NCBI GenBank assembly: GCA_964496765.1
Contig: CAZCAP010000009.1
Location: 2,741 to 30,347, forward strand
DNA length: 27,607 nucleotides
Origin: an uncultured archaeon
GTDB taxonomy: Archaea; Iainarchaeota; Iainarchaeia; Iainarchaeales; CSSED10-239
Direction of reading: 5' to 3'
Shown here: piece after piece, positions 5,848-26,718 of the stretch
Numbering within the stretch: the stretch's first letter is position 1
Layout of the letters: every line of letters begins with the position of its first letter
Notes under the pieces: model-generated
Seen by the model: only the letters and a program-made list of their open reading frames with translations
Databases searched by the model: none
Told to the model about the DNA's origin: nothing
Program-made: the position numbers and the translations under genes

Positions 5848-5850
5848 TTT

Positions 5851-6888
5851 TTAAATGAATAAACTGAAATATAATCTGAAATAAAATAAAATTGTAGCAA
5901 TGGATATAATTATTTGAATTATATAAAAGGTCCAAACTAATTTTTTTTCTGTAAATCTACCGGTTCTTAGGATAAGGTGGGTTAATGATCCACCTTTTGG
6001 ACTTGCTTTAATGGTTCTATTTTTTTGAGGAATTCCAAAGCATTCTGATTTGAAATTGTGAGAAATCTTAATGAAAAACTCAATTACGTATAATAAAACT
6101 AGGAAACCAATCAAAAATTCCATATGCAAAACAATTGCAGATATTCCTGCAAGGGATCCCGATACCAATGTAATAATATCCCCAGGAAATATTTTTGAAG
6201 GATATCTGTTGAACTTCAGGAATCCAATGAGTGCACCCAACCAACAAGCAAGTATTATTAATAAAGTTATTTCTCCTTGAATGAATGCAATTATTGAAAT
6301 GGTTGAAAAAATAATTATTGATAATCCAGCTTCCAGTCCATTAAACCCAGCTAGAAGATTAAATGCATTAGTTGCAGAAGTCATGACTAGGGGAACAAAT
6401 ATCCAGGCATAAAGTAAACCAAAACTAATGGTCCCAACAAATGGGATATAAAGGTTATTAATTCCATGGAAGATTGCAAATAGAATCATTGGAACAGAAA
6501 ATAATATGGGAAGTATAAAATGTTGCCATTGGGATATTCCTTTCTTCCATCCAAGAACATCATCTATGAATCCCACAAAAAGAATTAATAGCATTGTTAT
6601 GATTATTAATAGCATTGATTTAATATCAATAAAAACATAGGGATTAAATGAAATTAAATAATAGATTGCAATTGCCAATAGAATTGATAGCGTAAATCCA
6701 AAGAAAACAGGAACACCTCCAAGTTCAGCCACATTATTTTTTTTGAACTTGTTCATGTCCTTTCCAATCCAACCTCTAGCTCTAGCTAATCCTATAAACT
6801 TAGGAGTAACTACTAAAAGAATAAACCAGGATAGGAATAAAGAAAAAATAAAGATGAGAATTGAAAATAGTGTTTTGTAGTCTATCAT
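5851..6888 (-). CDS. Glycosyltransferase family 4 polyprenyl/dolichyl-phosphate HexNAc-1-phosphate transferase (MraY/WecA/AglH-like)
   Basis: 345 aa polytopic membrane protein with GFIDDVLGWKKG, SATNAFNLLAGFNGLEAG and a PGD motif (FPGDIITL), as in GT4 phosphotransferases. Lies 4 nt from aglB. Confidence 0.85.
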   Translation of the reverse strand: MIDYKTLFSILIFIFSLFLSWFILLVVTPKFIGLARARGWIGKDMNKFKKNNVAELGGVPVFFGFTLSILLAIAIYYLISFNPYVFIDIKSMLLIIITMLLILFVGFIDDVLGWKKGISQWQHFILPILFSVPMILFAIFHGINNLYIPFVGTISFGLLYAWIFVPLVMTSATNAFNLLAGFNGLEAGLSIIIFSTISIIAFIQGEITLLIILACWLGALIGFLKFNRYPSKIFPGDIITLVSGSLAGISAIVLHMEFLIGFLVLLYVIEFFIKISHNFKSECFGIPQKNRTIKASPKGGSLTHLILRTGRFTEKKLVWTFYIIQIIISIATILFYFRLYFSLFI

Positions 6889-6892
6889 CTAA

Positions 6893-8833
6893 TCACTTTA
6901 ATTTATCTTTATTAACTTTGAATACATTTACGGATCCAGTTGTATAAACTGTAGTAAACAAACCATCTAGGCTTGGATCAGAAAACCACATTCTTGTGAA
7001 CATGGCGTCATTTGCACTTTCATTTAATATATATAATGCAATGTTGTTTGGATCTCTATAAATATACACAGGAGTGTTCTGCATAAGCTCATTTGGTTTA
7101 TCTTGCCAGATTGCTGGAAGCTTATTAAACTCAGCCTCTGGAATCTGATTTTGCCCACAAGAATAATTTATAACCCCAGTAACTTCTGTTTTTGTACTTG
7201 AACAAGGTAGAACTGTTCCAAAATATTTTGTAACTCTTGGATCACTTGTATTTGTAGTTACATAGGCATACATCCCAAAAGAACCAAACCTTCTGAAATA
7301 ATCTGATTCTACAGGTATATAATCAGCTTGATATTTAATTAATATTTCTTTTGCTTTGTTAACATCATCAGTTATCATGAACATTGCAACATCTGAATCT
7401 CCTTCAATAAAAGAGTTGGTGTTATCAGTTGCAACCTTCCTTTCTGAAAAATATGCAATCCAGTGCCCATAGTCCCACCAATTAAATATATTTGCATTCA
7501 CATCTGTATTATCGTAAAGCCAGAAAACAGTATCCTTCCAATCTGTTTGCTCATCAATTGGAGGAACATTTGTTGAAACAAAGAAAGAACCAGCTGCAAT
7601 TGAAATTAAAAGTATAACTCCAAGCACTATAACAATAGTTCTCTTGGTTATTAATTTGTCTTTATCCTGTATCCATTCAGATATTATATAGAACAACACA
7701 CCACACCCTGCAGCAATTGGTAATCCAAGGGTATAGGTGAACTTTAATTTAAACCAGGCCATGAATAGAGTTATTGCTATCCAGAAAAATAATAATAAAC
7801 TAATGTAATCTTTTTTCTTAGTTGTAAATAGATAAATAATTATTCCCAATAGGGCTGCAAATGGAACCCAGAGCAGGAAACTATATTTTTGCAGGAAGAA
7901 CTGATGTCCTGTGTTTTCTTCTCCGACAGTAGCTCCAACAACATCTGTTGGAGAGACATTTGTTTTATCAAATCTATCTATGTTATCTTGATTAATTGGT
8001 ATGTATTGAGTTACATAATAGGTTGTATCCTTTATCCAAGCTGAACCAGTTAATAATGTTGCTCCTGCTGTGAACAATACCATTACCACAACAAATATTT
8101 TCACAAAGGATCCAATTTCATTATTTGTTGCATTCTTGTATGCCATATAAATTACATTAACAATAAAATACGCAATCATGACAAGTGGAATTAAAATAAA
8201 CATTCCCCAGGTTATTGACATAAGTATAAAGAATGCAGAGGAAATAACTGCATAAGTAAGATATTTCTTAGTTGCATGCACGTGCTTCATTGCTTTAATA
8301 AAGAAAATAAATCCAAGTACTAGCCATAGGAAACCTAATGAATCATCTTCAAAGAAACCAGCCATGGTTCTATAAACGAAGGCAGGGATTGTTGCAGCAA
8401 CAACTGCCATAATGAAACCGGTTTTACGATTGTACATCTCCTTTCCTAGAAAATACATTGCAACAGCAATTAGTGCACCAAACAATGCAGGAAGAACCCT
8501 AGCATAATCCATGAGCAACCATTTACTGTATCCTGCACCCAGGGTCGTAATTGTATAAATAAAAGCTGTTACTGACCAGAGAAATTGAGGCCTAGCTCCA
8601 TAGGGTGATCCTCCCTGTTGATAGAATCCAAGTGGATCATTGGCAGGAAGATCTCCTTGCACCATGTACCCAACTGCACGAAGATGCCAATAGGGATCAT
8701 ATTCGTACATGTAATCATATTTTAATAGATGACCTCTAATTGAAAAGGCCATTATAAAAATAAGAACAAGTAATATAATTAATTTGTATTTGCTTATGCT
8801 AGTTTCTTTGTTTTCTGCTTCGTGTTCTGACAT
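6893..8833 (-). CDS. aglB: Archaeal oligosaccharyltransferase AglB (STT3 family)
   Basis: 646 aa with a multi-TM N-terminal half and a soluble C-terminal half that carries the catalytic WWDYG motif (NIFNWWDYGHWIAYF). Confidence 0.9.
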   Translation of the reverse strand: MSEHEAENKETSISKYKLIILLVLIFIMAFSIRGHLLKYDYMYEYDPYWHLRAVGYMVQGDLPANDPLGFYQQGGSPYGARPQFLWSVTAFIYTITTLGAGYSKWLLMDYARVLPALFGALIAVAMYFLGKEMYNRKTGFIMAVVAATIPAFVYRTMAGFFEDDSLGFLWLVLGFIFFIKAMKHVHATKKYLTYAVISSAFFILMSITWGMFILIPLVMIAYFIVNVIYMAYKNATNNEIGSFVKIFVVVMVLFTAGATLLTGSAWIKDTTYYVTQYIPINQDNIDRFDKTNVSPTDVVGATVGEENTGHQFFLQKYSFLLWVPFAALLGIIIYLFTTKKKDYISLLLFFWIAITLFMAWFKLKFTYTLGLPIAAGCGVLFYIISEWIQDKDKLITKRTIVIVLGVILLISIAAGSFFVSTNVPPIDEQTDWKDTVFWLYDNTDVNANIFNWWDYGHWIAYFSERKVATDNTNSFIEGDSDVAMFMITDDVNKAKEILIKYQADYIPVESDYFRRFGSFGMYAYVTTNTSDPRVTKYFGTVLPCSSTKTEVTGVINYSCGQNQIPEAEFNKLPAIWQDKPNELMQNTPVYIYRDPNNIALYILNESANDAMFTRMWFSDPSLDGLFTTVYTTGSVNVFKVNKDKLK

Positions 8834-9042: not shown

Positions 9043-9612
9043 ATGCAAATTAAAACAATACCACTATCAAACTTAAAAACGGCAGATGATTTACAACAAC
9101 AAATACTTAATCCAACACACAAAAAGAGATATAGAACATATGGATATATAAAAAATAGTTACAACCGAAACTCGTCTTTATTTGTTGGCGCTTATGATAA
9201 ACACAAATTAATTGGCATTGTTTTTGGGCATATTAAAAAAAACAAAATTTTACTTGGAGAAATGGCAATTTTAAAAGAATACAGAAATAAAGGTATTGGT
9301 AGTAAATTAATTACTTTTTTTGAGAAACAAGTAAAAAGATCTGACAAAAAATATATTGAACTAGGTGCTTTTGGAGACGCCGAAAAATTTTATATTAAGA
9401 ACAAATATACGCCGCTACTATTTGCACAAATTTACTACAATAAAGTTCCAAAAAACTACACTAAATTTGGATTAAATATTATAAAAGAAACAAATTATAA
9501 AGACGCAAAAAGATGTTTTATAGAAATAAAATATGATCCAAAATTAAAAATTAAAATACAAAAACAACTCAAGGCATATAATGTTATTTATTTATTTAGA
9601 AAAAAAATCTGA
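9043..9612 (+). CDS. GNAT-family N-acetyltransferase
   Basis: 189 aa. Acetyl-CoA binding motif A is present (MAILKEYRNKGIGSKLITFFEKQ). The 3' end overlaps the convergent 77-aa gene by 21 nt. Confidence 0.8.
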   Translation: MQIKTIPLSNLKTADDLQQQILNPTHKKRYRTYGYIKNSYNRNSSLFVGAYDKHKLIGIVFGHIKKNKILLGEMAILKEYRNKGIGSKLITFFEKQVKRSDKKYIELGAFGDAEKFYIKNKYTPLLFAQIYYNKVPKNYTKFGLNIIKETNYKDAKRCFIEIKYDPKLKIKIQKQLKAYNVIYLFRKKI

Positions 9613-9825
9613 TGGTGATATGATAAGACACAAGTCCGAAATAATTTGCTTTGCAATTAAGTAATTGGATGTATGTTTAATTAGCTCTGGTTTATTTCTT
9701 ATTTCCTGTATTTGGTTGTAAATTTGCTTTGAATGTTTGGAAGAATACTCCAAAATTATATTCTTATGAGTAATAATAAAATAAATTTTATTTGTATCCT
9801 CCCTATATAATATTTTTAACATCAT
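9592..9825 (-). CDS. Small protein coupled to the radical SAM gene (possible PqqD/RRE-like peptide-binding partner)
   Basis: The track ORF 9592..9843 starts at a TTG that overlaps the rSAM gene. The first ATG (9825) lies 2 nt after the rSAM stop (TGA at 9828-9830), giving 77 aa (MMLKILYREDTNKIYFIITHKNIILEYSSKHSKQIYNQIQEIRNKPELIKH...). The predicted strand-strand-strand-then-helices order is compatible with an RRE fold. This is inference only. Confidence 0.45.
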   Translation of the reverse strand: MMLKILYREDTNKIYFIITHKNIILEYSSKHSKQIYNQIQEIRNKPELIKHTSNYLIAKQIISDLCLIISPSDFFSK

Positions 9826-9827
9826 AA

Positions 9828-10862
9828 TCACTTCACTAAACAATAATCTATATCATCATATATATTTTTATTCAAAATATCTAACTGTATTGGGCATCGC
9901 CCACATTTAGATCGTAATTTACAATTTGGACAACCAATTATTTGTTGTTCCCGCCAATATTTAAATTGATAAGAATTCCAAACAAATATAACCCTTTTTG
10001 GATCAGTTAACTTCACACTAAAATCTGGCTTGAATTTAGTATATTCTATCAAAGGACAAGGATATGCAATCTTATCCACAGATATATGATAATAATGTAT
10101 ACCACCGCCACACTCAAACACATATTTTTTACCATCTATTCTCTTAAAATCAGAAATATCTAAATCAATATTATATAAATCACACAATTTATTTAATTTA
10201 TTTGAAAAACCATCACAAAATAATTTAAATATGGCATTGGATTCAATATCAGTTTTATTTAGATGACCACGTCCTTTTTGTAATAAAGGGCCAATTACCC
10301 ATTTATTCACACCTAATTTGTGTAAATACTCTGGAAATTTTAACAATTGATTATAATTTTTTGAATGAACCAAAGTACCTATCGTCACAAAAATGTTTTT
10401 ATTAGTTAAATCCTTTATGGTGTTTATTGTTTTTAAAAAAATAATTTTATTTCTTCTTTTTGGATCTCTAATAAAGGTATGTGAAAGTGGGGTAATTCCA
10501 TCTAGTGAAACCTTAACTGATAGAAGCATTTTTGATTCCACAATTTTATTGACTAATTGATTAGAAAATAAACCATTTGTAGTTAAACAATAAGGTAATT
10601 CAATATTATCTAGGTAATTAATTATATTCTTAAAATCAGGATGTAAAGTTGGTTCCCCCCCAGAAATAGTCACATAGATTATATTTTGATTTTTCAAGTA
10701 TAAAAATAACTTTTTTAAATAATTTATAGAAAGTTTTTTTTTAACTATGCCATATGATCCATAACAATGAAGACATCTTAAATCACAGTCACTTGTTATA
10801 GATATATTAACATGCAAAGGTGCGATTTTAGGAAGTATATTTTCCAGTGTTTTTCTATTCAT
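9828..10862 (-). CDS. Radical SAM enzyme with C-terminal SPASM (auxiliary 4Fe-4S) domain
   Basis: 344 aa. CxxxCxxC motif (SDCDLRCLHCYG) and SAM-binding GGEPTL are present. The C-terminal Cys constellation is FECGGG...AYPCP ... GCPNCKLRSKCGRCP ... DYC, typical of SPASM/twitch peptide-modifying maturases. Confidence 0.9.
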   Translation of the reverse strand: MNRKTLENILPKIAPLHVNISITSDCDLRCLHCYGSYGIVKKKLSINYLKKLFLYLKNQNIIYVTISGGEPTLHPDFKNIINYLDNIELPYCLTTNGLFSNQLVNKIVESKMLLSVKVSLDGITPLSHTFIRDPKRRNKIIFLKTINTIKDLTNKNIFVTIGTLVHSKNYNQLLKFPEYLHKLGVNKWVIGPLLQKGRGHLNKTDIESNAIFKLFCDGFSNKLNKLCDLYNIDLDISDFKRIDGKKYVFECGGGIHYYHISVDKIAYPCPLIEYTKFKPDFSVKLTDPKRVIFVWNSYQFKYWREQQIIGCPNCKLRSKCGRCPIQLDILNKNIYDDIDYCLVK

Positions 10863-10876
10863 TATAAAACAAATCT

Positions 10877-11002
10877 TTAATACTGATTATGACTACATTC
10901 GTTACTTTCCATCTTTTTAAGTAGTTTGAAATGTATTTCTTTATTATTAACTCTTATTTTTTTGGATTCAGTATTTATCGCAATTGCTGCTGTAGATATC
11001 AT
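10877..11002 (-). CDS. Candidate precursor peptide (41 aa) upstream of the radical SAM/SPASM gene
   Basis: ORF is below the track cutoff and was translated by hand: MISTAAIAINTESKKIRVNNKEIHFKLLKKMESNECSHNQY. GGTGA (11011-11007) lies 4 nt (TTTT) upstream of the ATG, the same GGTGATTTTATG context as the Sm gene. An AT-rich TATA-like stretch lies upstream. The TAA stop at 10879-10877 is 14 nt before the rSAM ATG. Confidence 0.45.
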   Translation of the reverse strand: MISTAAIAINTESKKIRVNNKEIHFKLLKKMESNECSHNQY

Positions 11003-11031
11003 AAAATCACCAAATATATTAAATAACAATT

Positions 11032-11049
11032 TATATTTAAATATATCTT
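11032..11049 (-). promoter_or_regulatory. TATA-like promoter element for the peptide/rSAM operon
   Basis: The minus strand reads AAGATATATTTAAATATA, 30-47 nt upstream of the peptide ATG. It follows the oligo-T tract that ends the 5S gene. Confidence 0.35.
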
Positions 11050-11080
11050 TTTATAAATAAGAAATTCAAAAAAAATATTA

Positions 11081-11106
11081 AAAAGAAAAAAATAGAAATA
11101 TAAAAT
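11081..11106 (-). terminator. Oligo-T termination tract downstream of the 5S rRNA
   Basis: The minus strand directly after the 5S 3' end reads CATTTTATATTTCTATTTTTTTCTTTT. Archaeal RNA polymerase terminates at oligo-T runs. Confidence 0.4.
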
Positions 11107-11222
11107 GTTAGCAACTATCTAGACGCACCTTGCAGAAACAAGTAGCATGCAAAACCGGAAATGAACTTAACTTCTGGGTTCGGAAAGGGTCCAGGTGTTT
11201 CTTCATCCCTTTGGTCGCTAAC
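11107..11222 (-). rRNA. rrf: 5S ribosomal RNA (stand-alone)
   Basis: The minus strand reads GTTAGCGACCAAAGGGATGAAGAAACACCTGGACCCTTTCCGAACCCAGAAGTTAAGTTCATTTCCGGTTTTGCATGCTACTTGTTTCTGCAAGGTGCGTCTAGATAGTTGCTAAC (116 nt). It contains the universal 5S core CCGAACCC-GAAGTTAAG, and terminal helix I pairs (TTAGCGAC/GTTGCTAA). The region is a local GC-rich island in AT-rich DNA. Ends are +/- a few nt. Confidence 0.9.
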
Positions 11223-11289: not shown

Positions 11290-11841
11290 CTATTCAGCAT
11301 CTCCCTTAACCTTCTTTAGTAGTGCTTTAACTTTATTAACACTCTTTCTAATATCATCCTCTGTTTTAGCACCAGCACATATTAACTTACCATTCTTGAA
11401 TAGAAGAATAGTTATCTTTGGATTGTAAAGTCTTATGATTGCTCCAGGAAATTGTTCTGGCTCATACTCAATATCATCAAGAGTTACTGCTGCTTCAAAT
11501 AAATCAACAGTTTTACCAAGACTAGAGGTCGCAACAAGATTAACAATCTCATATTTAGGTGTTTTCTTTACAGACACTTCCTTTTGAATTTCAGAGATTA
11601 GTTTCATTGCTTTCCTAATTCCAGCAACTATGTCTTTTTCGGATGCAGCACCAGATATAATTATCTTACCATTCTTAAATAACAGAAGAGATACCTTTGG
11701 TTCTTTTATTTTAAAAATAGCACCAGGAAATTGCTCTGGTTCGTACTCAACGTCAGGTATTGCAGCAGCAAGATTATATAAATCAAGTGTTGTTCCAAGT
11801 GAACTTGATGCAACCAGGTTAACTATTGTATAGTTACTCAT
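11290..11841 (-). CDS. tbp: TATA-box binding protein
   Basis: 183 aa with two direct repeats: IVNLVASSSLGTTLDL...EYEPEQFPGAIFKIKEPKVSLLLFKNGKIIISGAASEKDI and IVNLVATSSLGKTVDL...EYEPEQFPGAIIRLYNPKITILLFKNGKLICAGAKTEDDI. Confidence 0.95.
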   Translation of the reverse strand: MSNYTIVNLVASSSLGTTLDLYNLAAAIPDVEYEPEQFPGAIFKIKEPKVSLLLFKNGKIIISGAASEKDIVAGIRKAMKLISEIQKEVSVKKTPKYEIVNLVATSSLGKTVDLFEAAVTLDDIEYEPEQFPGAIIRLYNPKITILLFKNGKLICAGAKTEDDIRKSVNKVKALLKKVKGDAE

Positions 11842-19752: not shown

Positions 19753-20118
19753 TTATTTCCTCTTGAAACCAAATAAATCATTATATTTATCATGATCTCC
19801 ATATTCAAGAACAAAGCAAATAATCTGAATCTCATTTGTTTGAATATTATATATTAATCTCCAAAAATTAGAAAGATTAATTATCCAAAGATTTGTTATT
19901 CCCCTTTTTTGATATTTAGATGGAATTAATGATTTTTTAACAATTCTTCCTGCTTCTGGATTAACTTTTAAAAGCTCTATTTTTTGCGTTATTGAATTAA
20001 GTAGAGTCTGATTTCTGCTCTTCTTAATCCCTTTACTGATTTCATCTTCAACTATTTTGGTTAGCTTAAGATATTCATCTTTAGCTTCTCCTTCAAATAT
20101 CACTTTCACTTCTTTCAT
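19753..20118 (-). CDS. ParE/RelE-superfamily toxin-like protein
   Basis: 121 aa. The layout IFEGEAKDEYLKL...IELLKVNPEAGRIVK...LWIINLSNFWRLIYNIQTNEIQIICFVLEYGDHDKY follows the ParE/RelE pattern (helical hairpin, then G-x-x-h, then h-W-R-h-h-Y-x-h ... h-x-h-h-x-h-x-x-H). It overlaps the upstream gene by 4 nt (ATGA). Confidence 0.55.
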   Translation of the reverse strand: MKEVKVIFEGEAKDEYLKLTKIVEDEISKGIKKSRNQTLLNSITQKIELLKVNPEAGRIVKKSLIPSKYQKRGITNLWIINLSNFWRLIYNIQTNEIQIICFVLEYGDHDKYNDLFGFKRK

Positions 20119-20378
20119 ACTTCTAGACCCTTCTTTATCCTTTCTTTTAATTCATTCTTTGGTTGATAGGTCCAGATAATCCCTTTTTTACTATCATAGA
20201 TAATCCCTCTATCATCAAGATAATCAACTACAACATTTAATGTTTGTTTCATTACTTTGTTTTTTAATTTTTTGATTATCTTGTATCTTGTTAAAGGAAG
20301 ATCTGATTGTTTTATAATATTTTCAACCTCAAGAACTGTTTTTAGGTTAGGGTAATGAAGAATGTTTTTTTGTTTCAT
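20115..20378 (-). CDS. Small winged-helix-like protein, putative antitoxin/regulator of the ParE/RelE-like gene
   Basis: The track ORF starts at 20417. The ATG at 20378 is preferred because GAGGT lies 7 nt upstream and TATAAATATA further upstream (87 aa: MKQKNILHYPNLKTVLEVENIIKQSDLPLTRYKIIKKLKNKVMKQTLNVVVDYLDDRGIIYDSKKG...). Helix-turn-helix-wing pattern. It is translationally coupled to the toxin-like gene. Confidence 0.5.
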   Translation of the reverse strand: MKQKNILHYPNLKTVLEVENIIKQSDLPLTRYKIIKKLKNKVMKQTLNVVVDYLDDRGIIYDSKKGIIWTYQPKNELKERIKKGLEV

Positions 20379-20460
20379 AATATTAACCTCATAGGTGATA
20401 TATTTATACCCTAACATATTAAAACCTTTTCTATTATAGGTATATTATTACTTGGAAGGA

Positions 20461-20502
20461 TATATCCTTTTCGGGAGGGTAGCTGTCCAAGCAAAATTAG
20501 GT
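20461..20502. repeat. 42-bp repeat, copy 1
   Basis: TATATCCTTTTCGGGAGGGTAGCTGTCCAAGCAAAATTAGGT is 40/42 identical to 22079-22120. It is relatively GC-rich and contains a CCnTTTCGGG mini-hairpin. It lies upstream (5') of the minus-strand antitoxin-like gene. Confidence 0.9.
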
Positions 20503-20557
20503 CTTTCTTTAGATAGCAAGATTTGGATTAATATAATACAGGATATCAATCAAGAGC

Positions 20558-20596
20558 AATTGAAAGAAGAATTAGAAAAGTTAAATGTAAAATAAA
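20558..20596. repeat. Direct repeat copy B (39 bp, perfect) of the HAD gene 3' end
   Basis: Identical to 19696-19734. Its last 16 nt form, in antisense, the final codons and stop (..FYI*) of the 167-aa gene at 20581..21084. Confidence 0.9.
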
Positions 20597-21084
20597 TCTT
20601 CTACCTTCTCTGGGAGGTGATCTATTCCTTCGAATTCTCTAATTGGAATTGATTTTATTTTGTTTTTAATCAATAGCCTAACATGAGTGATTGCCATTTC
20701 CTTTTTCCCACCCATGCTTTCACAATTATCTTCTATTAGTACGTCTGGTGTTTCCTTTTCAACAACATCTTTGTATTCTTCATTTTGTTTTCTAAACAAT
20801 AATTTTCCTTTTGGGAAATTATATTTAATAAGAACATCTCTAATTTGATCAATTTGATTTTGTTTTTTTCTGGAGGTTAAATAAATTAAATCTATTGATT
20901 GGGTGCTCCACAATTTGAGTTTTTTAGAAGCATTTCCTATTGGGATATAGGTTTTAAAATCATGAACTGATGTATCTCTTTTTTTAACCTGATCAATTAT
21001 GTCTTTTCTTTTTTTATTAAATGCATTATTGTGCATAATAATGGTTCCCTCAGTAAAAACCATAATCTTTATCTTCTTGTTCAT
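20581..21084 (-). CDS. HAD-like fold hypothetical protein lacking the canonical DxD nucleophile motif
   Basis: 167 aa. KIMVFTEGTI sits where motif I (hhhDxDxT) is expected. IYLTSR (motif II), a conserved Lys region and VLIEDN (motif IV) follow. This is pattern-level inference only. Confidence 0.45.
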   Translation of the reverse strand: MNKKIKIMVFTEGTIIMHNNAFNKKRKDIIDQVKKRDTSVHDFKTYIPIGNASKKLKLWSTQSIDLIYLTSRKKQNQIDQIRDVLIKYNFPKGKLLFRKQNEEYKDVVEKETPDVLIEDNCESMGGKKEMAITHVRLLIKNKIKSIPIREFEGIDHLPEKVEDLFYI

Positions 21085-21108: not shown

Positions 21109-21149
21109 TATATCCCTTTTGGGAGACTACTTTCAATCCAAACAGATTA
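21109..21149. repeat. 42-bp repeat family, degenerate copy 2
   Basis: In TATATCCCTTTTGGGAGACTACTTTCAATCCAAACAGATTA the first 17 nt match copies 1 and 3 at 15/17 each, and the remainder is only loosely alignable. On the minus strand its end reads GGGATATAAAC, centred about 26 nt upstream of the ATG at 21084. Confidence 0.6.
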
Positions 21150-22043
21150 TTTCCCCTTTAAATTATCAAGTATCTTTAAATTATCTTTTTCTAGTTTTGC
21201 AAATCCAAACCATTTCTTTCCAAGATCTTTTATTGATGCTCCAAAATGATAAATTTCTTTATTATCAACAATTAGAAATCTATCATGTGACTTCTTGAAC
21301 TTCTTAATATCTATTGGATTTGAACTATATTGTAAATTAGATTTATCTATATCCAGTTTTAATTGATTGGTTATATTTTCAGTATAGATTGTAACTCTTA
21401 CGTTCTTATTTACTTTTGTAAATAAGGTTAAAACAGAATCATCAATGTAATTATCTATTAAAATTATTGATTTTTTTGCATTTCTGATAATATTAGATAT
21501 GAACCTATGCGCATCAAACACTTGACCATCATAAAATATTCCTTGCTTTTTAATTATGTCCTTACTTTCTATTGCATCAAAAACTTTTTTGAAATTGTTG
21601 TCTGTACTTATTTGATATTCAAGTTGCTTTCTTTCAACTGAATCTAATCTTATAAATATTTCTGTGTTCTTTGAAATGAATCGTCTCATTGAAACAAATG
21701 CATTAATTATTTGAATACTTATATTTACTGCTGTTTTTGTTTTTAGGACACCAGAAAGCATTGCAACCCCTTGTTCAGTAAAAACATAGGGAGAGGTTCC
21801 ACCTAGATGCCTTTTTGAAGGTATCGCATTTTGCGATACCATAAAATCAATTTCCGCAAAATTTAATTGAAACATAAATTCGTTTGGAAATCTTGTAATA
21901 TTCCTTTTTACTTGTTCACGCAAACGAATAGCCTTTATTTTATACAATTTAGCTAAATCACTATCAAGCATTACTTGAACTTCTCTAATAGTGTATATCT
22001 TATACCCAATATTTTCATTAATAATTAAAATATCCTTAGCCAC
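21147..22043 (-). CDS. ORF6N (KilA-N-related) DNA-binding domain protein with C-terminal HKD/PLD-like motif
   Basis: 298 aa. N-terminus IREVQVMLDSDLAKLYKIKAIRLREQVKRNITRFPNEFMFQL is the ORF6N signature. The C-terminus SHDRFLIVDNKEIYHFGASIKDLGKKWFGF resembles HxK(x)4D...G-S with K replaced by R. GTG start with GGTGA 5 nt upstream. Confidence 0.8.
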   Translation of the reverse strand: MAKDILIINENIGYKIYTIREVQVMLDSDLAKLYKIKAIRLREQVKRNITRFPNEFMFQLNFAEIDFMVSQNAIPSKRHLGGTSPYVFTEQGVAMLSGVLKTKTAVNISIQIINAFVSMRRFISKNTEIFIRLDSVERKQLEYQISTDNNFKKVFDAIESKDIIKKQGIFYDGQVFDAHRFISNIIRNAKKSIILIDNYIDDSVLTLFTKVNKNVRVTIYTENITNQLKLDIDKSNLQYSSNPIDIKKFKKSHDRFLIVDNKEIYHFGASIKDLGKKWFGFAKLEKDNLKILDNLKGK

Positions 22044-22078
22044 TTTTAGTCACCACATATATTATAGAAATTATAGTG

Positions 22079-22120
22079 TATATCCCTTTCGGGGGGGTAG
22101 CTGTCCAAGCAAAATTAGGT
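22079..22120. repeat. 42-bp repeat, copy 3 (tRNA-proximal)
   Basis: TATATCCCTTTCGGGGGGGTAGCTGTCCAAGCAAAATTAGGT lies 67 nt from the 3' end of tRNA-Ser and 35 nt upstream of the ORF6N gene start. Confidence 0.9.
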
Positions 22121-22187
22121 TTGTTTTTCCTACCTCTAGGTTCTATTTTCTTTCCCTAGGGTTTCGTTCTTTAGAAAGAAAGGCTCA

Positions 22188-22273
22188 CGCAGAGGATGAG
22201 ATTCGAACTCATGGATGGGGTTACCATCACTTGTTTTCGAGACAAGCACCTTCAACCACTCGGCCACCTCTGC
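22188..22273 (-). tRNA. tRNA-Ser (anticodon CGA)
   Basis: The minus strand reads GCAGAGGTGGCCGAGTGGTTGAAGGTGCTTGTCTCGAAAACAAGTGATGGTAACCCCATCCATGAGTTCGAATCTCATCCTCTGCG (86 nt). It folds by hand: acceptor GCAGAGG/CCTCTGC, anticodon stem CTTGT/ACAAG with loop CTCGAAA, long variable arm GATGG/CCATC, T-arm ATGAG-TTCGAAT-CTCAT, discriminator G. No encoded CCA. Confidence 0.9.
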
Positions 22274-22281
22274 ACAACCGC

Positions 22282-22300
22282 TCGCCCAGTTGACGGGCGA
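22282..22300 (-). other. GC-rich 6-bp hairpin in the tRNA-Ser 5' leader
   Basis: TCGCCC-agttgac-GGGCGA on the plus strand; the minus strand reads TCGCCC-GTCAACT-GGGCGA. It ends 8 nt upstream of the tRNA 5' end and is conspicuous in AT-rich DNA. Confidence 0.5.
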
Positions 22301-22364
22301 ATAACATGTTAACAAACACATAGTTAACAAACGAATACATATATTATGTAAGAATAAGATTATA

Positions 22365-22661
22365 TTACTTTACTAGCGAGGCTCTGTTGATCACAGAAAG
22401 AAGATTTGAAACTAAGCTTTTTGCTGCATCCTCATCAGTTAAATCCTTAACTATTATCTTCAATGATGAGAAAATAGTCATCTCTCCTTCCTTTATCTTA
22501 ACATGTATGTAAAAAGGAGAGTTATCCTTTGAAATGTAATAGCCATTCTTTGTTAAATAGTTCATTAGATCCTTAACATCTATCTTTTTATTCCTTTTTG
22601 GATAGAACTCAAATCCAGGTGTTACCTTACATGAATCTAAAATAAAATCAGATAATTCCAT
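22365..22661 (-). CDS. Small protein resembling a single TBP-type repeat (helix-grip/TBP-like fold suspected)
   Basis: 98 aa, starting 20 nt after the HerA-like stop. IDVKDLMNYLTKNGYYISKDNSPFYIHVKIKEGEMTIFSSLKIIVKDLTDEDAAKSLVSNLLSVI aligns by eye with the TBP repeat of this same window (LDLYNLAAAIPDVEYEPEQFPGAIFKIKEPKVSLLLFKNGKIIISGAASEKDIVAGIRKAMKLI). Confidence 0.55.
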   Translation of the reverse strand: MELSDFILDSCKVTPGFEFYPKRNKKIDVKDLMNYLTKNGYYISKDNSPFYIHVKIKEGEMTIFSSLKIIVKDLTDEDAAKSLVSNLLSVINRASLVK

Positions 22662-22681
22662 AAATACTTACCTTATTATAA

Positions 22682-25417
22682 TTATACATCTTGACCAAGA
22701 ACACCATCAATTAATATTGTTCTTTCTTCATGCCCATCCTTACTAACAAGAGTAATATGCCAGATAGGCCAATAAACCTCATCAAGAGAAATAAACTCAA
22801 CCTCTCCAAATAACTTCTTTAGGTTTTCTTCAACTAGCTTTGGAGAATAGGTTATATTCTCAATAAACTCAATCTCTAGCTTTCTTAAAGCTAGATCACT
22901 AACTGATGTCATTAGTTTATGGAAAACATTGAAAGGAACATCAAACTTTGCTGATGTTTTATAAAATTCTTTCTTACTTTTTTCAGAAACTGAAAGAAGA
23001 TTGCTTTTCTTTAATGTTTCTATTCTATTTTTAACTAGAGATAACTCAAGATCTAGTTCTCTTGCAATTGATTCAATTGTTTGGTTTCCCTTTGAAATAA
23101 AAAGAATGTCTAGATCAATCTCATCTAAACCATTAACTAGATTAAATCCTTTTGATTCTCTAAACTTATCTCCTAGGAAATGTAAAAACTCACCAGTTAC
23201 TGAGTCTATGTAGCAGGCTGCTCTTTTGAAATCTCCTTCTGGATTAAAAACATTGAAATTAAATTTATAGATGGTTCTGTATTTTAGAACTATGTTTTTA
23301 ATGTATTCCTTTGGAGAGAAGATAATAAATGATTTCTTTGTTGATGATCTTGCAATTTCTTCAATTCTTTCTCTTTTTATTCTTAGAGGAAAGGTTTGAT
23401 GTACTTTAACTCTTGAAATTAGGTTAGTTTTATCTATTGCTAGATCATTTTCTATTTCCTCAAAGGATTCTTCTTTGTCCTTTGGTTCTAATTGTTTTAA
23501 TGTTTCTTTTAGTTCTTGAACACCAGGTTCAATAAAATCTAAATATAATACTTCTTTTTTAAGTATTACTTTCTTTTCAAATAGTTTTTCTAGAACTTCA
23601 TCAAACTCTATGTTTGATCTGTATTTTATGTTAACTACTTCTAGAATATCCTTAGCAAAAGAAACTCTTAGTTCTTTTGCTTTTTCTAGTTTTTTAAAGA
23701 TCATTGTTGTTGCTATTGTTAGGACTTGAGAGTTGTTTAGTTTTTTTATATCTCTTATTGTTTCTGCATCTCTTCCTTCATGTTGTGATTTTCTTGGAGC
23801 TGCTCTCATAATGAATGCTCTTGATGTTTCCTCTGATCTATCTCCAACTAGAGCTGTTGCAAAAGGTATTGTTTTTATGAAGTTTGGATCTTTGTATTGA
23901 TCAGGTATGATTGCTGGCATTCTTTTTTGAATAGCTGAAATATCATCATTGAAAACTAGTTTGTTTGAAATTAATATGTCTACTTGGGATAATACTTTTG
24001 TGTTAATTGCTGATGGTTGTTGGGTTGCAAAAACAAGTGAACAACCAGGCCTTCTTCCTTGCTTTACGTATTCAATAATACCAGCTGTTGCTGGTGTTAA
24101 TGAGTTTCCTGATGGTATTAGGGTGTGTGCTTCATCTATGTACAACCAGGTAGGAGGAATTTCAGTTTCAAGTAACTCATCTGCTCCTTGGCCTTCTTTG
24201 TTTTCTATTTTCTTGCTTGCACTTTCTCTTGCTGCTATTTTTCTTGCTGATAATAGTCTTCTTGCTAGAATACCAATAACTAGTGCTGTTATGTTTTCAT
24301 CTAGGAAAGATGTATCAAGAACAGTTAACTGGTTTTCCCTTGATAGCTTAGATAGGGTTGTTCCATGATCTGAGAAGATACCCCATGATTTAGCTGCATC
24401 AAATCTAGAAACAAGAGCTCTAATAGTGTCTGGTTTGTATCCTTTCTTTTGAGATACAAACTCTGAATTAGTTGATAAACAATCAATAATGTTATCTAAA
24501 GTGAATTGATTTCCTTTTGGTTTTATTTTTTTGAAATCATCTCCTTCCTTTCCTGTTCCAGCTGTGTATCCTTTTTTAACAAACTCAATTGTTTTTTCAA
24601 GCAATAATCCAGATGGAGAGAATCTTTCAATTCCAAAAGTAATACACCAGTCCTCTGGTGTTAATAAAGATGAATACATTGAGAAAGTATCATCATAGGT
24701 GTCTTTTGATACTTTATCTGCTACTCCTTCAGGAACAAAAACTTTTAGGTTTTTTATTCCTTCTGGTTTTTGGTTCCATTCTTCTAATATTTTAATTTCT
24801 TTTGCTTCTTTGTTTTCATATTTCATTGACCAAAAAACACCAACAGGATCAATAACTATTTGTCCTATGTATGGATTATTTCTAGCTAGTTCTTCAGCAA
24901 TAACTCCAAGTAAATAACTTTTTCCTGTTCCTCTTGCACCATCAAGGAACACAACATGTGGATTAAGCCCATCTAAATATACTTCTTTATCTTTTTCTTG
25001 ATCTTCAGCTACCCTTCCAATAAGAGCAAGCCCTTTATTACCATATTGCTTTTGAACAGACTTCTTTCTTCCTATGTACACTTTGTTTGGGTTTTCAGGA
25101 TCACTAAGGAACTTGAGAAGAGGTTTTATTTCCTTAATAGGTAATGGAGTTGATGCTATTGGTTTAGGTTCAGGTTCAAGCTTAGGTTTAGGTTCTTGCT
25201 TAATCTTTTCATCATTCTCTGCTTTTTCCTTTGGTTCAGGTTTAGGTTTTGGAGTAGGGACATAAGCAGATATTGTAATTGGGGTAGAAGCAGGGATAGA
25301 GGTAGGAACAGGTGCCTGGTCAGACAAATCAGCAGGAATAGGTTTTTCATCCTCTTCCATGATTTTAAAGAAGTCATCCTCCTTCTCTTCATCCTTTTTA
25401 TATTTTTCAACAGACAT
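22682..25417 (-). CDS. HerA/FtsK-superfamily (DUF87-type) ATPase with disordered N-terminus and C-terminal extension containing a winged helix
   Basis: 911 aa. Walker A is VVFLDGARGTGKSYLLG and Walker B is WLYIDEAHTLIP. The DUF87/HerA signature GRRPGCSLVFATQQPSAINTKVLSQVDILISNKLV is present. Residues about 30-95 are Pro/Lys/Glu-rich low complexity. The last ~350 aa include a wHTH-like segment (NQTIESIARELDLELSLVKNRIETLKKSNLLS). Confidence 0.85.
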   Translation of the reverse strand: MSVEKYKKDEEKEDDFFKIMEEDEKPIPADLSDQAPVPTSIPASTPITISAYVPTPKPKPEPKEKAENDEKIKQEPKPKLEPEPKPIASTPLPIKEIKPLLKFLSDPENPNKVYIGRKKSVQKQYGNKGLALIGRVAEDQEKDKEVYLDGLNPHVVFLDGARGTGKSYLLGVIAEELARNNPYIGQIVIDPVGVFWSMKYENKEAKEIKILEEWNQKPEGIKNLKVFVPEGVADKVSKDTYDDTFSMYSSLLTPEDWCITFGIERFSPSGLLLEKTIEFVKKGYTAGTGKEGDDFKKIKPKGNQFTLDNIIDCLSTNSEFVSQKKGYKPDTIRALVSRFDAAKSWGIFSDHGTTLSKLSRENQLTVLDTSFLDENITALVIGILARRLLSARKIAARESASKKIENKEGQGADELLETEIPPTWLYIDEAHTLIPSGNSLTPATAGIIEYVKQGRRPGCSLVFATQQPSAINTKVLSQVDILISNKLVFNDDISAIQKRMPAIIPDQYKDPNFIKTIPFATALVGDRSEETSRAFIMRAAPRKSQHEGRDAETIRDIKKLNNSQVLTIATTMIFKKLEKAKELRVSFAKDILEVVNIKYRSNIEFDEVLEKLFEKKVILKKEVLYLDFIEPGVQELKETLKQLEPKDKEESFEEIENDLAIDKTNLISRVKVHQTFPLRIKRERIEEIARSSTKKSFIIFSPKEYIKNIVLKYRTIYKFNFNVFNPEGDFKRAACYIDSVTGEFLHFLGDKFRESKGFNLVNGLDEIDLDILFISKGNQTIESIARELDLELSLVKNRIETLKKSNLLSVSEKSKKEFYKTSAKFDVPFNVFHKLMTSVSDLALRKLEIEFIENITYSPKLVEENLKKLFGEVEFISLDEVYWPIWHITLVSKDGHEERTILIDGVLGQDV
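25133..25330 (-). repeat. Low-complexity coding repeat (Pro/Lys/Glu-rich) within the HerA-like gene
   Basis: The plus strand shows imperfect GGTTTAGGTTCA-type iterations encoding PKPKPEPKEKAENDEKIKQEPKPKLEPEPKP. This region produces the spurious alternative-frame track ORFs 25074..25265, 25156..25410 and 25196..25450. Confidence 0.7.
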
Positions 25418-25522: not shown

Positions 25523-26584
25523 TTAATTAACATTATCTGAGGCATTTGTTTTTTTACCTAAAAGCACCTTATCCAGTAATCTCTTTGTTAATGGATCATT
25601 AAAAAAATCTTCAAATGTGAAACATTCATAAAAATGCTCAAGCAGTTCTTTGAATCTTTCTATTTCTTTGTTAAGGCCAAATGAAAAATTAAATTGAAGC
25701 TCTTCTAAATTTAAATTGTTTTTAATATAGTATTCCCTTATTGTTGTTTTGTAGTTATTAATCGCCATAATGTCCCAAAAAGTACCAAACAATTCAAAAT
25801 ATATATTTCTTATCTTATAATCTAACTTTGTTTTATCTAATCTTTCAAAATATATTAAAAAATCATGATAATCATCAGTTATTTTACTTAATTCTTTTGA
25901 ATAGGGTTTATATTCAGTAAATTTTTCGAAATTATCAACTAAATACTTTGTATTCCATTTTAGTAGGTTTTCAAGCATCTCATCTTTTAGTCTATAAAGC
26001 TTATTGAAATCAGAATTTCCTGATTCATATTGTTTTTTTCTAATTTGTTTTGATGAAAGAACAACATTCTCATTTATTAAATCATAAATTTGCTTGTCTG
26101 ATAATATAGTTGAAAACTCCGTATTTTTTATTGATAATTCAATATAATTTATACTTGGATCATATGCAACTGGAACAATTTGCCCATACTTATACCACAC
26201 AACTGGTAATCCCAAACTTAATTTATTGTTTATTTCAACAAGTTGCTTTTGCATTTGTGTTTTAGTTGGTTTTCTTCCTGTTGCCTTAAACCAATAATCC
26301 TCTATTTTGGAGAAAAGATAATTTATCATATCTCTATGTTCTTTCTTGATATTTAGATTAAAATAAATATCTGATTTTTTGTTTGTGAAATTACAAAATA
26401 TATCAGATATTGCATATTTATTATCATCCATTGAAAGAATTTTATCTTTTGCTAGACTTAGAACTATTCTTTTAACAGTTTCTTTATGGATACCTGTATC
26501 TTCTGAAATCTTATCAATCGTAGTCCAAGAATTAGTTGTGATATATAATATCACCTTATTTACATTATCTAGTCCCATCTCCAC
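25523..26584 (-). CDS. Winged-helix DNA-binding protein with large uncharacterised helical C-terminal region
   Basis: 353 aa. The track start is GTG, and the ATG at 26578 with GAGGA upstream is more likely. N-terminal wHTH: ILYITTNSWTTIDKISEDTGIHKETVKRIVLSLAKDKILS. The remainder has no recognisable family. Confidence 0.65.
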   Translation of the reverse strand: MEMGLDNVNKVILYITTNSWTTIDKISEDTGIHKETVKRIVLSLAKDKILSMDDNKYAISDIFCNFTNKKSDIYFNLNIKKEHRDMINYLFSKIEDYWFKATGRKPTKTQMQKQLVEINNKLSLGLPVVWYKYGQIVPVAYDPSINYIELSIKNTEFSTILSDKQIYDLINENVVLSSKQIRKKQYESGNSDFNKLYRLKDEMLENLLKWNTKYLVDNFEKFTEYKPYSKELSKITDDYHDFLIYFERLDKTKLDYKIRNIYFELFGTFWDIMAINNYKTTIREYYIKNNLNLEELQFNFSFGLNKEIERFKELLEHFYECFTFEDFFNDPLTKRLLDKVLLGKKTNASDNVN

Positions 26585-26718
26585 ACATCCTCAGACATAA
26601 TATATACACCTACAAGTATATAAATGTATCATTATATAATTACATATAAATATAAAAGTGTGTTAAATAGCCGAAATATTTAAATATAAGGTATGTAGTA
26701 TTATATGTGGTGAACGAT

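What the first reader, a model, noticed from the sequence alone, without database searches (positions are those of the whole stretch)
9592..11049. Candidate RiPP-like locus: untracked 41-aa peptide ORF, radical SAM/SPASM enzyme and a tightly coupled 77-aa partner
Seen in sequence: a 41-codon ORF (10877..11002, minus strand; MISTAAIAINTESKKIRVNNKEIHFKLLKKMESNECSHNQY) lies directly upstream of the rSAM gene. It has a GGTGA ribosome-binding site 4 nt (TTTT) before its ATG and an AT-rich TATA-like stretch upstream. Only 14 nt separate its stop from the rSAM ATG. The rSAM protein has CxxxCxxC and GGEPTL, plus a complete C-terminal Cys set (ECGGG..PCP..CPNCKLRSKCGRCP..C) that is diagnostic of SPASM-type peptide maturases. 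A 77-aa ORF starts 2 nt after the rSAM stop. Established knowledge: the order precursor, then rSAM/SPASM, then a small PqqD-like RRE is canonical for sacti-/ranthipeptides, SCIFF, PQQ-like and related RiPPs. Inference: the basic, helical-looking leader and a short C-terminal core with a single Cys flanked by Asn/Glu/His (SNECSHNQY) would suit a thioether or other radical cross-link. Such a locus in a small, host-dependent-type archaeal genome would be unusual. I do not recognise the core sequence as any described class.
Basis: partly seen in the sequence, partly recalled or inferred. Interest (0 to 1): 0.75.

Follow-up and report, generated by a model that had tools for sequence, protein, structure and literature searches.

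The report
Undescribed radical-SAM peptide module in tiny archaea
A 41-residue peptide gene, a radical SAM/SPASM enzyme, a small partner protein and an acetyltransferase form a conserved peptide-modification cassette in small-genome archaea. Relatives in ultra-small (CPR) bacteria carry the same C-terminal peptide signature, so this is a real, previously undescribed family whose chemistry is still unknown.

Summary
The 41-aa peptide recurs next to every complete close homologue of the rSAM. Its first 15 and last 6 codons are under strong purifying selection. Its C-terminal signature, C-x-x-N-[Q/E]-[Y/H/F]-stop, reappears beside rSAM homologues only ~30% identical, in CPR bacteria (Dojkabacteria/WS6, Patescibacteria), even where the peptide gene sits elsewhere in the cluster. 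The rSAM has CxxxCxxC plus a conserved 7-Cys SPASM set. It matches no curated family; its nearest solved relatives are the peptide maturases SkfB, PqqE, SuiB and CteB. The partner of the bacterial relatives models as an RRE fold. The archaeal 77-aa partner has a beta-beta-beta-alpha-alpha-alpha topology that fits an RRE, but no significant match, so that point stays open. It travels with the module while both flanks change, and in one subgroup it is fused to the partner domain. Most likely this is a RiPP system in which the rSAM installs a cross-link from the invariant Cys within the C-terminal hexapeptide (PapA's native motif is C-S-A-N-D). A mycofactocin/PQQ-like cofactor route is the main rival. 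It is a new precursor family within a known kind of system.

The parts
11003..11060 (-). Conserved upstream region of the peptide gene. It holds an A/T-rich TATA-like block (about 11057..11031) and the Shine-Dalgarno-like GGTGA (11011..11007), followed by TTTT before the ATG.
   Evidence: In the alignment of four archaeal loci, ATTTGGTGATTTTATGATATC is invariant and a block AAAATAG.T..ATTT.(A/T)ATA is conserved ~45 nt upstream. The sequence was read directly. Promoter function is inferred.
10877..11002 (-). Precursor peptide gene (41 aa). It has a conserved N-terminal leader MISTAAIA[IV]NTES[KR]K, a variable Lys-rich linker and a conserved C-terminal core C-[SAGD]-H-N-Q-[YH] followed by the stop.
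   Evidence: 27 family members in three subgroups; a fourth subgroup. Selection pattern.
9828..10862 (-). Radical SAM/SPASM enzyme (344 aa). The CxxxCxxC motif is at C26/C30/C33. The SPASM Cys set is C251, C269, C311, C314, C320, C323 and C341. There is no N-terminal fused RRE.
   Evidence: Pfam Radical_SAM 9.3e-17. NCBIfam hits are all far below their cut-offs. Cys conservation across 17 homologues. PDB profile hits to SkfB, PqqE, SuiB and CteB. Family boundary.
9592..9825 (-). 77-aa partner protein, translationally coupled to the rSAM (2-nt gap). It is a candidate leader-binding (RRE-like) subunit.
   Evidence: Conserved in all archaeal loci. The AF2 model has pLDDT 71 and topology E3-8, E13-18, E23-28, H32-43, H46-49, H56-68. 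There is no significant fold or sequence match. The positionally equivalent bacterial partner hits RRE structures.
9043..9612 (+). GNAT acetyltransferase (189 aa), convergent with the partner gene and overlapping its 3' end by 21 nt. It is an accessory component of the module.
   Evidence: Pfam GNAT. It is present with the same overlap wherever the sequence downstream of the partner gene is available, while both flanks differ. In L016 a homologous GNAT (BLASTP 2e-15, aligned end to end) is fused to the partner domain.

Best explanation
This is a four-gene RiPP-type cassette.

**Shown**
- The 41-aa ORF is a conserved, selected gene. Its N-terminal motif and its C-terminal hexapeptide C-x-x-N-[Q/E]-[Y/H/F]-COOH are the conserved parts.
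- It always accompanies one clade of rSAM/SPASM enzymes that lack a fused N-terminal domain, plus a small partner gene directly downstream of the rSAM.
- In the archaeal subgroups a GNAT is also present, and in one subgroup it is fused to the partner.

**Inferred mechanism**
- The partner binds the conserved leader segment ([IL]-A-x-x-[IV]-type strand) and presents the C-terminal core to the rSAM.
- The rSAM abstracts a hydrogen atom from a residue in the last two or three positions and joins that carbon to the invariant Cys thiol. The result is a small C-terminal thioether macrocycle (expected -2 Da), as PapB does on its native C-S-A-N-D motif and on C-terminal residues.
- The core always ends at the stop codon, which suggests the free alpha-carboxylate or the terminal aromatic residue is part of what is recognised or modified.
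- The GNAT then acetylates an amine of the peptide. In the CPR bacteria, glycosyl-, deacetyl-, methyl- and carbamoyl-transfer enzymes take that tailoring role.

The biological role is unknown. It could be an antagonistic or signalling peptide, or a cofactor.
For: - **Gene reality and conservation:**
- **Same core beside ~30%-identical rSAMs, in a different gene order:** in groups B, C and D the core recurs. In group B the peptide gene lies four genes downstream of the rSAM, which excludes a mere upstream leader ORF.
- **rSAM:** the 7-Cys SPASM set is conserved. The best solved relatives are RiPP maturases: SkfB 6.5e-23, PqqE 1.7e-21 over the full length, SuiB and CteB.
- **No fused RRE:** family proteins start at the rSAM core, whereas many of the next-best SPASM proteins (about 430-480 aa) carry ~100 extra N-terminal residues. 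This fits a stand-alone RRE.
- **Partner:** the top Foldseek hits of the bacterial partner model are almost all RRE domains (TbiB1 prob 1.00, TruD, LynD, MccB, PbtF RRE, CteB, SuiB). The archaeal partner has the beta3-alpha3 order.
- **GNAT linkage:** constant neighbour with variable flanks, and a partner-GNAT fusion.
- **Chemistry precedent:** PapB links Cys to the carbon next to a carboxylate in CX3D/E motifs. Its native motif is CSAND, and it also links Cys to the C-terminal residue (PMC9413430; PMC12373016).
Against: - There is no experimental or expression evidence.
- The rSAM matches no curated maturase family (best ~73 bits against cut-offs of 265-850). The PapB model scores no better than MftC, ScmE or NirJ-type models.
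- Groups A, C and D have Gln rather than Glu at -2, so a strictly carboxylate-directed PapB-type reaction at that residue cannot be general.
- The archaeal 77-aa partner shows no significant similarity to PqqD/RRE or to the bacterial partners.
- No protease or exporter is conserved in the cassette.
- Some populations carry a split rSAM (L098, L101) or a decayed locus (L097), so the system is dispensable.
Confidence: 0.8

Rival explanations
1. The peptide is a sacrificial scaffold for a small cofactor, as in mycofactocin or PQQ. The rSAM would act on the C-terminal aromatic residue (oxidative decarboxylation and/or C-C bond formation). The modified C-terminus would then be cut off and, in CPR bacteria, glycosylated, deacetylated, methylated and carbamoylated.
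For: - For the bacterial relatives the best NCBIfam models are MftC (100-105 bits, full length) and PqqE (~97 bits).
- PqqE is the best full-length solved relative.
- The core sits at the extreme C-terminus and ends in Tyr in nearly all members, as in MftA (from my own knowledge of MftA ..CGVY).
- The group B cluster carries BshA/MshA-like GT4 and BshB1-like PIG-L enzymes, a methyltransferase and a carbamoyltransferase. This recalls mycofactocin glycosylation and low-molecular-weight-thiol pathways.
- The system occurs in reduced genomes, where a cofactor is easier to justify than an antibiotic.
Against: - All scores are far below the family cut-offs (265 for MftC, 381 for PqqE).
- No MftD- or MftE-like oxidase or peptidase, or PqqB/C equivalents, are in the cassette.
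- The terminal residue can be His (P0041) or Phe (group D), which argues against phenol-dependent chemistry.
- Cys and Asn are invariant, which the known Tyr-centred reactions do not explain.
- The locus is lost or broken in some populations, which would be unusual for an essential cofactor.
Confidence: 0.17
2. The small ORF is not the substrate. It would be a regulatory upstream ORF or an unrelated micro-protein, and the rSAM would modify a non-peptide substrate or another protein.
For: There is no direct evidence of modification. The rSAM also resembles non-peptide SPASM enzymes (NirJ, AhbD, tungsten-cofactor maturase) at similar low scores.
Against: - The same C-terminal motif co-occurs with the rSAM clade across two domains of life and four gene orders, including positions far from the rSAM start.
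- Selection acts on the amino-acid sequence at both ends of the peptide.
- In the decayed locus L097 the peptide, rSAM and partner-GNAT genes are all damaged: one deletion removes the peptide 3' end with most of the rSAM, and a frameshift splits partner from GNAT.
Confidence: 0.03

Closest known systems
Ranthipeptide / PapB-PapA (freyrasin) system
   Same: A SPASM rSAM acts on a ribosomal peptide. The native PapA motif C-S-A-N-D (Cys-X3-acid, with Asn before the acceptor) closely resembles C-S-Q-N-E-(Y) and C-S-H-N-Q-(Y). PapB can also link Cys to the C-terminal residue. The window rSAM aligns to the PapB model over its full length.
   Different: - The score is 59 bits against a cut-off of 340.
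- There is a single motif at the extreme C-terminus instead of six internal repeats.
- Gln replaces the acidic acceptor in three subgroups.
- The partner is separate rather than a fused RRE.
- GNAT or sugar-tailoring enzymes are present.
Mycofactocin system (MftA/MftB/MftC)
   Same: It combines a short precursor whose C-terminal residues are the substrate, a stand-alone small RRE-type partner, and a SPASM rSAM without a fused RRE. A glycosyltransferase occurs in the bacterial clusters. MftC is the top NCBIfam hit for group B.
   Different: - Scores are 71-105 bits against a cut-off of 265.
- The core is C-x-x-N-[QE]-[YHF], not ..GVY.
- There are no MftD or MftE homologues.
- The gene order differs, and the terminal residue is not always Tyr.
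PQQ biosynthesis (PqqA/PqqD/PqqE)
   Same: It is a three-part arrangement of peptide, small stand-alone RRE and SPASM rSAM. PqqE (6c8v) is the best full-length solved relative.
   Different: The score is below the PqqE cut-off (97 against 381). There is no E-x3-Y motif and no PqqB/C/F. The partner does not match Pfam PqqD.
Sactipeptide maturases (SkfB, AlbA, CteB)
   Same: These are Cys-donor thioether chemistry carried out by rSAM enzymes with auxiliary clusters. SkfB is the best PDB hit by E-value.
   Different: Those enzymes carry an N-terminal RRE extension, and their precursors are unrelated. All scores are below the cut-offs.

Membership tests
Radical SAM / SPASM superfamily | CxxxCxxC cluster motif and the rSAM core domain | tested here: met
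   CDLRCLHC at residues 26-33. Pfam PF04055 scores 62 bits against a cut-off of 29.5.
Radical SAM / SPASM superfamily | C-terminal 7-Cys SPASM signature (C..G-x4-C .. CxxCx5Cx2-3C .. C) | tested here: met
   C251, C269, C311, C314, C320, C323 and C341 are invariant or >=90% conserved across 17 homologues. Pfam SPASM is not triggered by the window protein itself, but it is by its ~30%-identical homologues.
RiPP system (precursor + maturase) | A conserved short precursor gene that co-occurs with the modifying enzyme, with a leader/core organisation | tested here: met
   27 peptides in 3 subgroups, plus a fourth subgroup. All lie beside this rSAM clade and have conserved ends and a variable middle.
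RiPP system (precursor + maturase) | Demonstrated post-translational modification of the peptide | not testable with these tools
   This needs co-expression and mass spectrometry.
PqqD-like RRE (PF05402) for the 77-aa partner | Sequence match to the PqqD/RRE profile | tested here: not met
   There is no Pfam or NCBIfam hit at E<=1 and no PDB sequence hit.
PqqD-like RRE (PF05402) for the 77-aa partner | Winged-helix fold: three-stranded sheet followed by three helices | tested here: inconclusive
PapB-family ranthipeptide maturase (NF047865) | Score above the curated cut-off | tested here: not met
   59.3 bits against a cut-off of 340; 65-69 bits for group B.
PapB-family ranthipeptide maturase (NF047865) | Cys-X3-Asp/Glu motif in the core | tested here: inconclusive
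   Group B has C-x-x-N-E, which fits. Groups A, C and D have C-x-x-N-Q, with no side-chain carboxylate. The PapA motif CSAND comes from PMC12373016.
Mycofactocin maturase MftC (TIGR03962) | Score above the cut-off, plus MftA-type ..GVY precursor and MftD/MftE genes | tested here: not met
   71 bits (window) and 100-105 bits (group B) against a cut-off of 265. The precursor core differs, and no MftD/E-like genes are in any locus.
PqqE (TIGR02109) | Score above the cut-off, plus a PqqA E-x3-Y precursor | tested here: not met
   The model is not among the best 25 for the window protein and scores ~97 bits against 381 for group B. The motif is absent.
GNAT acetyltransferase (9043..9612) | GNAT fold with the acetyl-CoA binding motif R/Q-x-x-G-x-G/A | tested here: met
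   Pfam Acetyltransf_7/10/1 above their cut-offs. The motif YRNKGIGSKL is present in the translation.

The most novel reading that the evidence does not exclude
The cassette would make a previously unknown peptide-derived small molecule or cofactor specific to ultra-small, host-dependent prokaryotes of both domains (DPANN-like archaea and CPR bacteria). It would be built on the invariant C-terminal hexapeptide C-x-x-N-[Q/E]-aromatic. In Dojkabacteria it would be elaborated by bacillithiol-like GlcNAc-transferase and deacetylase enzymes, a methyltransferase and a carbamoyltransferase. In other words, it would be a ribosomally templated glyco-thiol or redox cofactor rather than a conventional antimicrobial RiPP.
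Probability: 0.15. Interest if true: 0.85.

Novelty: new variant of a known kind. Interest (0 to 1): 0.62.

Why it matters
DPANN archaea and CPR bacteria have minimal genomes and almost no characterised specialised metabolism. No rSAM-dependent archaeal RiPP product has been characterised: the 2025 survey PMC12144867 lists only bioinformatic predictions for that class. This work defines a compact four-gene cassette with a clear, testable substrate motif, shared by both groups of ultra-small organisms. It offers a tractable entry point for heterologous reconstitution. It may also yield a new cross-link or cofactor chemistry at a peptide C-terminus, and a marker for studying how episymbionts interact with hosts or competitors.

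Tried and rejected
- **Linking the two partner families by sequence.** Profile-profile comparison of the archaeal 77-aa partner with the bacterial partners found nothing significant (hhalign). Only YREDTNKI~WRNDNKAI aligned, at E 0.3. Homology between the two partner types is therefore unproven.
- **Partner profiles against PDB sequences.** Both searches gave only spurious repeat-protein hits.
- **Foldseek on the archaeal partner model.** No hit was significant.
- **Metagenome scan with the rSAM alignment.** It used generic patterns (SGGEPT, K[IV]SLDG). It returned mostly unrelated rSAMs, and only L015 and L016 were useful.
- **Sigma-70 promoter scan.** It is uninformative for an archaeon and was at chance level: 14 sites against 16.3 expected.
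- **rSAM pN/pS values, window versus L005/L007.** These are unreliable because the genes differ by compensating indels and were compared without alignment. I do not use them.
- **P0111/L105.** Considered as a family member and rejected: it scores 200 bits, has no motif peptide, and has a different RRE arrangement.
- **The 135-aa ORF after the group D partner.** Tested as a possible GNAT and rejected.
- **Literature searches.** No description of this family was found in DPANN or CPR.
Full report
**1.

On the minus strand:

- The 41-codon ORF lies at 10877..11002.
- GGTGA sits at 11011..11007, then TTTT, then the ATG.
- A 14-nt spacer precedes the rSAM gene (9828..10862, 344 aa).
- A 77-codon ORF (9592..9825) starts 2 nt after the rSAM stop.
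- The rSAM carries CDLRCLHC, SGGEPTL and the C-terminal Cys series.

The window is from a low-GC (~29%) archaeon. It encodes TBP, AglB/STT3, Nre, L21e and DUF655. A 5S rRNA gene (11106..11222, minus strand) lies directly upstream of the peptide gene. Sources name the window's proteins only 'archaeon'. A TBP at least 90% identical sits on a 977,747-bp contig, which fits a small genome. A partial rSAM homologue (56% identity) is labelled 'Candidatus ainarchaeum sp.', presumably Iainarchaeum, a DPANN lineage.

**2. The small ORF is a real, selected gene**

The rSAM has only a handful of close homologues (73, 67, 64 and 56% identity). Every complete locus carries the same 41-aa ORF immediately upstream (L001, L005, L007/L015, L098-L101). 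These peptides share MISTAAIA[IV]NTES[KR]K at the N-terminus and C-[SAGD]-H-N-Q-[YH] at the C-terminus, with a variable Lys-rich middle.

Pairwise codon analysis gave:

| Region | Result |
|---|---|
| First 15 codons | pN 0-0.06, pS 0.37-0.48 |
| Last 6 codons | 2.5-5 synonymous changes, 0-3 non-synonymous |
| Middle | pN roughly equal to pS |

So both ends are under purifying selection at the protein level. At the DNA level, ATTTGGTGATTTTATGATATC is invariant, and a TATA-like block ~45 nt upstream is conserved. This fits a dedicated archaeal promoter and ribosome-binding site (inference).

**3. The family extends to CPR bacteria with the same core**

A second set of rSAM homologues (~30-34% identity, 373-410 aa, Pfam SPASM-positive) sits in a different, larger cluster. 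Its order is rSAM, 90-95-aa partner, GT4 glycosyltransferase, PIG-L deacetylase, FtsJ/RlmM-like methyltransferase, a 41-43-aa ORF, carbamoyltransferase and a second GT4. Those small ORFs read MK[IV]NPGTSGLAQN[IV]SSR...C[SADQK][QHK]NEY-stop. Sources name the organisms candidate division WS6/Dojkabacteria.

Three further subgroups were found:

- **Group C (L016).** A 59-aa peptide ending ISCGHNQY lies upstream of the rSAM.
- **Group D (P0108, 'Patescibacteria group bacterium').** A 38-aa peptide ends in ECSINQF.
- **A high-GC member (L104).** It keeps rSAM and partner, but the contig ends where the peptide would be.

A profile search with the peptides found 27 distinct members and nothing else. 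In a six-frame scan of all 105 fetched loci, the strict pattern C-x-x-N-[QED]-[YHFW]-stop occurred at all family loci that extend over the peptide position. There was one chance match elsewhere, without an ORF, in L098.

Across the family the core is therefore C-x-x-N-[Q/E]-[Y/H/F] followed immediately by the stop codon. Cys(-6) and Asn(-3) are invariant. The leaders share a short segment of similar pattern (IAINTESKK / LAQNVSSRK / IAQRIPQKY / VAKPIKQSK; and by eye).

The peptide gene lies upstream of the rSAM in groups A, C and D, and four genes downstream in group B. A purely regulatory upstream ORF is therefore excluded.

**4. The rSAM**

Pfam detects only the rSAM core in the window protein. 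In the alignment with SPASM-positive homologues, seven C-terminal Cys (C251, C269, C311, C314, C320, C323, C341) are invariant or at least 90% conserved, alongside CxxxCxxC.

No NCBIfam model comes near its cut-off:

| Protein | Best models (bits) | Cut-offs |
|---|---|---|
| Window rSAM | ScmE, TIGR04133, MftC, W-cofactor maturase ~70-73; PapB 59 | 265-425 for these models (up to 850 across all models listed) |
| Group B rSAM | MftC 100-105; PqqE ~97 | 265; 381 |

Against PDB sequences, the family profile hits SkfB (6.5e-23), PqqE (1.7e-21, full length), SuiB and CteB, among generic rSAMs. An exhaustive profile search of 1.84 billion representatives shows a distinct clade. About 18 representatives score from 512 down to ~200 bits. 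Below that is a smooth continuum of generic SPASM proteins. Many of these (about 430-480 aa) carry ~100 extra N-terminal residues.

Family members start directly at the rSAM core. This fits a requirement for a stand-alone leader-binding protein (inference).

**5. The partner**

The 77-aa protein is conserved in all archaeal loci but has no Pfam, NCBIfam or PDB sequence match. Its AlphaFold2 model (4-sequence alignment, pLDDT 71) has three strands followed by helices, which is the order of an RRE winged helix. Foldseek against the PDB gave nothing significant; CteB ranked 7 and TbiB1 ranked 35, with E around 1-2.

The bacterial partner (P0079, 30-sequence alignment, pLDDT 74) gave a hit list made up almost entirely of RRE domains. 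These included TbiB1 (prob 1.00, TMq 0.58), ThcOx, TruD, LynD, MccB, McbB, the PbtF RRE, CteB, SuiB and lasso B1, although individual E-values were only 0.08-1.

Profile-profile comparison does not link the archaeal and bacterial partners. I therefore treat 'RRE' as supported for the bacterial partner. For the window's 77-aa protein it is plausible but unproven.

**6. A fourth component: the GNAT**

The GNAT (9043..9612, plus strand) converges on the partner gene and overlaps it by 21 nt. The same arrangement, with the same overlap, is present wherever the sequence downstream of the partner gene is available. Both flanks differ completely between loci:

- **Upstream:** 5S rRNA/TBP, a C1 peptidase, AAA_14/DUF4143, or an ABC transporter plus tRNA.
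- **Downstream:** AglB, PGM/PMM, an unknown 450-aa protein, Rce1-like, or others.

In group C the gene after the rSAM encodes a 252-aa fusion. Residues 1-70 are the partner domain. Residues 71-252 are a GNAT that aligns end to end with the window's GNAT (BLASTP 2e-15). This gene fusion, together with the conserved neighbourhood, makes the GNAT part of the system in groups A and C. Groups B and D lack it. Group B instead has BshA/MshA-like GT4 and BshB1-like PIG-L enzymes (95 bits against a cut-off of 182), a methyltransferase and a carbamoyltransferase.

**7. Mechanism**

What is shown:

- a conserved precursor with a leader/core layout;
- obligate co-occurrence with a SPASM rSAM and a small partner;
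- accessory tailoring enzymes.

What is inferred:

- The partner binds the leader.
- The rSAM cross-links the invariant Cys to a residue at the extreme C-terminus.

The closest documented chemistry is PapB. It forms thioethers in Cys-X3-Asp/Glu motifs at the carbon next to a carboxylate (PMC9413430). Its native motif is C-S-A-N-D. It also joins Cys to the C-terminal residue when that residue's free carboxylate is the only one available (PMC12373016).

The family core, C-[SAG]-x-N-[Q/E]-aromatic-COOH, resembles that motif. It is always terminal, which suggests the free carboxylate or the terminal residue matters.

The alternative is MftC/PqqE-like chemistry on the terminal aromatic residue, yielding a cofactor. 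This is favoured by the best HMM hits for group B and by the sugar-tailoring genes. It is disfavoured by:

- the His and Phe variants at the terminal position;
- the invariant Cys and Asn;
- the absence of MftD/E- or PqqB/C-like genes;
- evidence that the locus is dispensable, namely a split rSAM in L098/L101 and a decayed group C locus in L097.

**8. Novelty**

No Pfam or NCBIfam (June 2026) model covers the peptide, the partner or this rSAM clade. Full-text searches found only generic statements that rSAM-type RiPP clusters occur in archaea, including DPANN (PMC12144867). They found nothing on this family.

The locus is a new precursor/maturase family within the known category of rSAM/SPASM RiPP systems. 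It is notable for its restriction, so far, to small-genome archaea and CPR bacteria, and for its strictly C-terminal core.

Noticed in passing
window 11106..11222 (-): A stand-alone 5S rRNA gene (Rfam 61.5 bits) lies between the TBP gene (11290..11841) and the peptide gene, with no 16S or 23S nearby. The peptide promoter region starts about 45 nt downstream of it.
   Followed up: partly
L008 4001-9140; L095/L096 5651-13045: In Dojkabacteria (WS6) the homologous rSAM and partner head an eight-gene cluster. It contains a BshA/MshA-like GT4, a BshB1-like PIG-L deacetylase, an RlmM/FtsJ-like methyltransferase, the 41-43-aa peptide, a NodU/CmcH-type carbamoyltransferase and a second GT4. This suggests a heavily tailored (glycosylated) product.
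   Followed up: partly
L016 1379-2137: A single 252-aa protein fuses the partner (RRE-like) domain to a GNAT that is homologous to the window's separate GNAT. This is gene-fusion ('Rosetta stone') evidence linking the two proteins.
   Followed up: yes
L097 ~5790-6780: A decayed group C locus in an archaeal contig. The peptide reading frame (..IVCGHNQ) runs straight into the SPASM tail (IICEGCKMLSKCNKCVAQSF), so the last codon, the stop and most of the rSAM are deleted. Partner (94 aa) and GNAT (133 aa) are separated by a frameshift.
   Followed up: partly
L098 8281-9162; L101 1730-2763: In some populations carrying the peptide identical to P0037, the rSAM is not called at full length. In L101 it is called as two ORFs (55 aa + 293 aa). 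In L098 only a 293-aa ORF is called. This is either a frameshift or pseudogene, or an assembly error.
   Followed up: no
L102 3815-5228; L103 1061-2474: A fourth subgroup occurs in a 'Patescibacteria group bacterium'. It has a 38-aa peptide ending ECSINQF (terminal Phe), a 343-aa rSAM and a 68-aa partner, preceded by a 4HBT thioesterase gene in both contigs.
   Followed up: partly
L104 15-2252: A high-GC (65%) member of the rSAM clade has an 84-aa partner followed by a PhyH-family dioxygenase. The family therefore is not confined to low-GC ultra-small organisms. The peptide gene would lie off the contig end.
   Followed up: no
window 5851..8833 (-): AglB/STT3 oligosaccharyltransferase (646 aa) and a GT4-family (Glycos_transf_4, AglH-like) gene lie directly beyond the GNAT. 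This is probably an ordinary N-glycosylation pair and is not conserved next to the module in other loci.
   Followed up: partly
window 21147..25417 (-), 22187..22274 (-): An ORF6N-domain protein, tRNA-Ser(CGA), a 98-aa ORF and a 911-aa HerA/DUF87-type ATPase sit together, flanked by several ORFs with no Pfam match (19753..21084, 25523..27291). This may be a mobile or defence-related islet next to a tRNA.
   Followed up: no
window 11029 (TTG) / P0053: An alternative 50-aa reading (MLFNIFGDF-MISTAA..) exists in the window, and one database entry is called that way (MEYNLFGDFMISTAA..). In L001 and L005 the listed or called ORF starts at MISTAA (41 aa), so the 41-aa form is the conserved one.
   Followed up: partly
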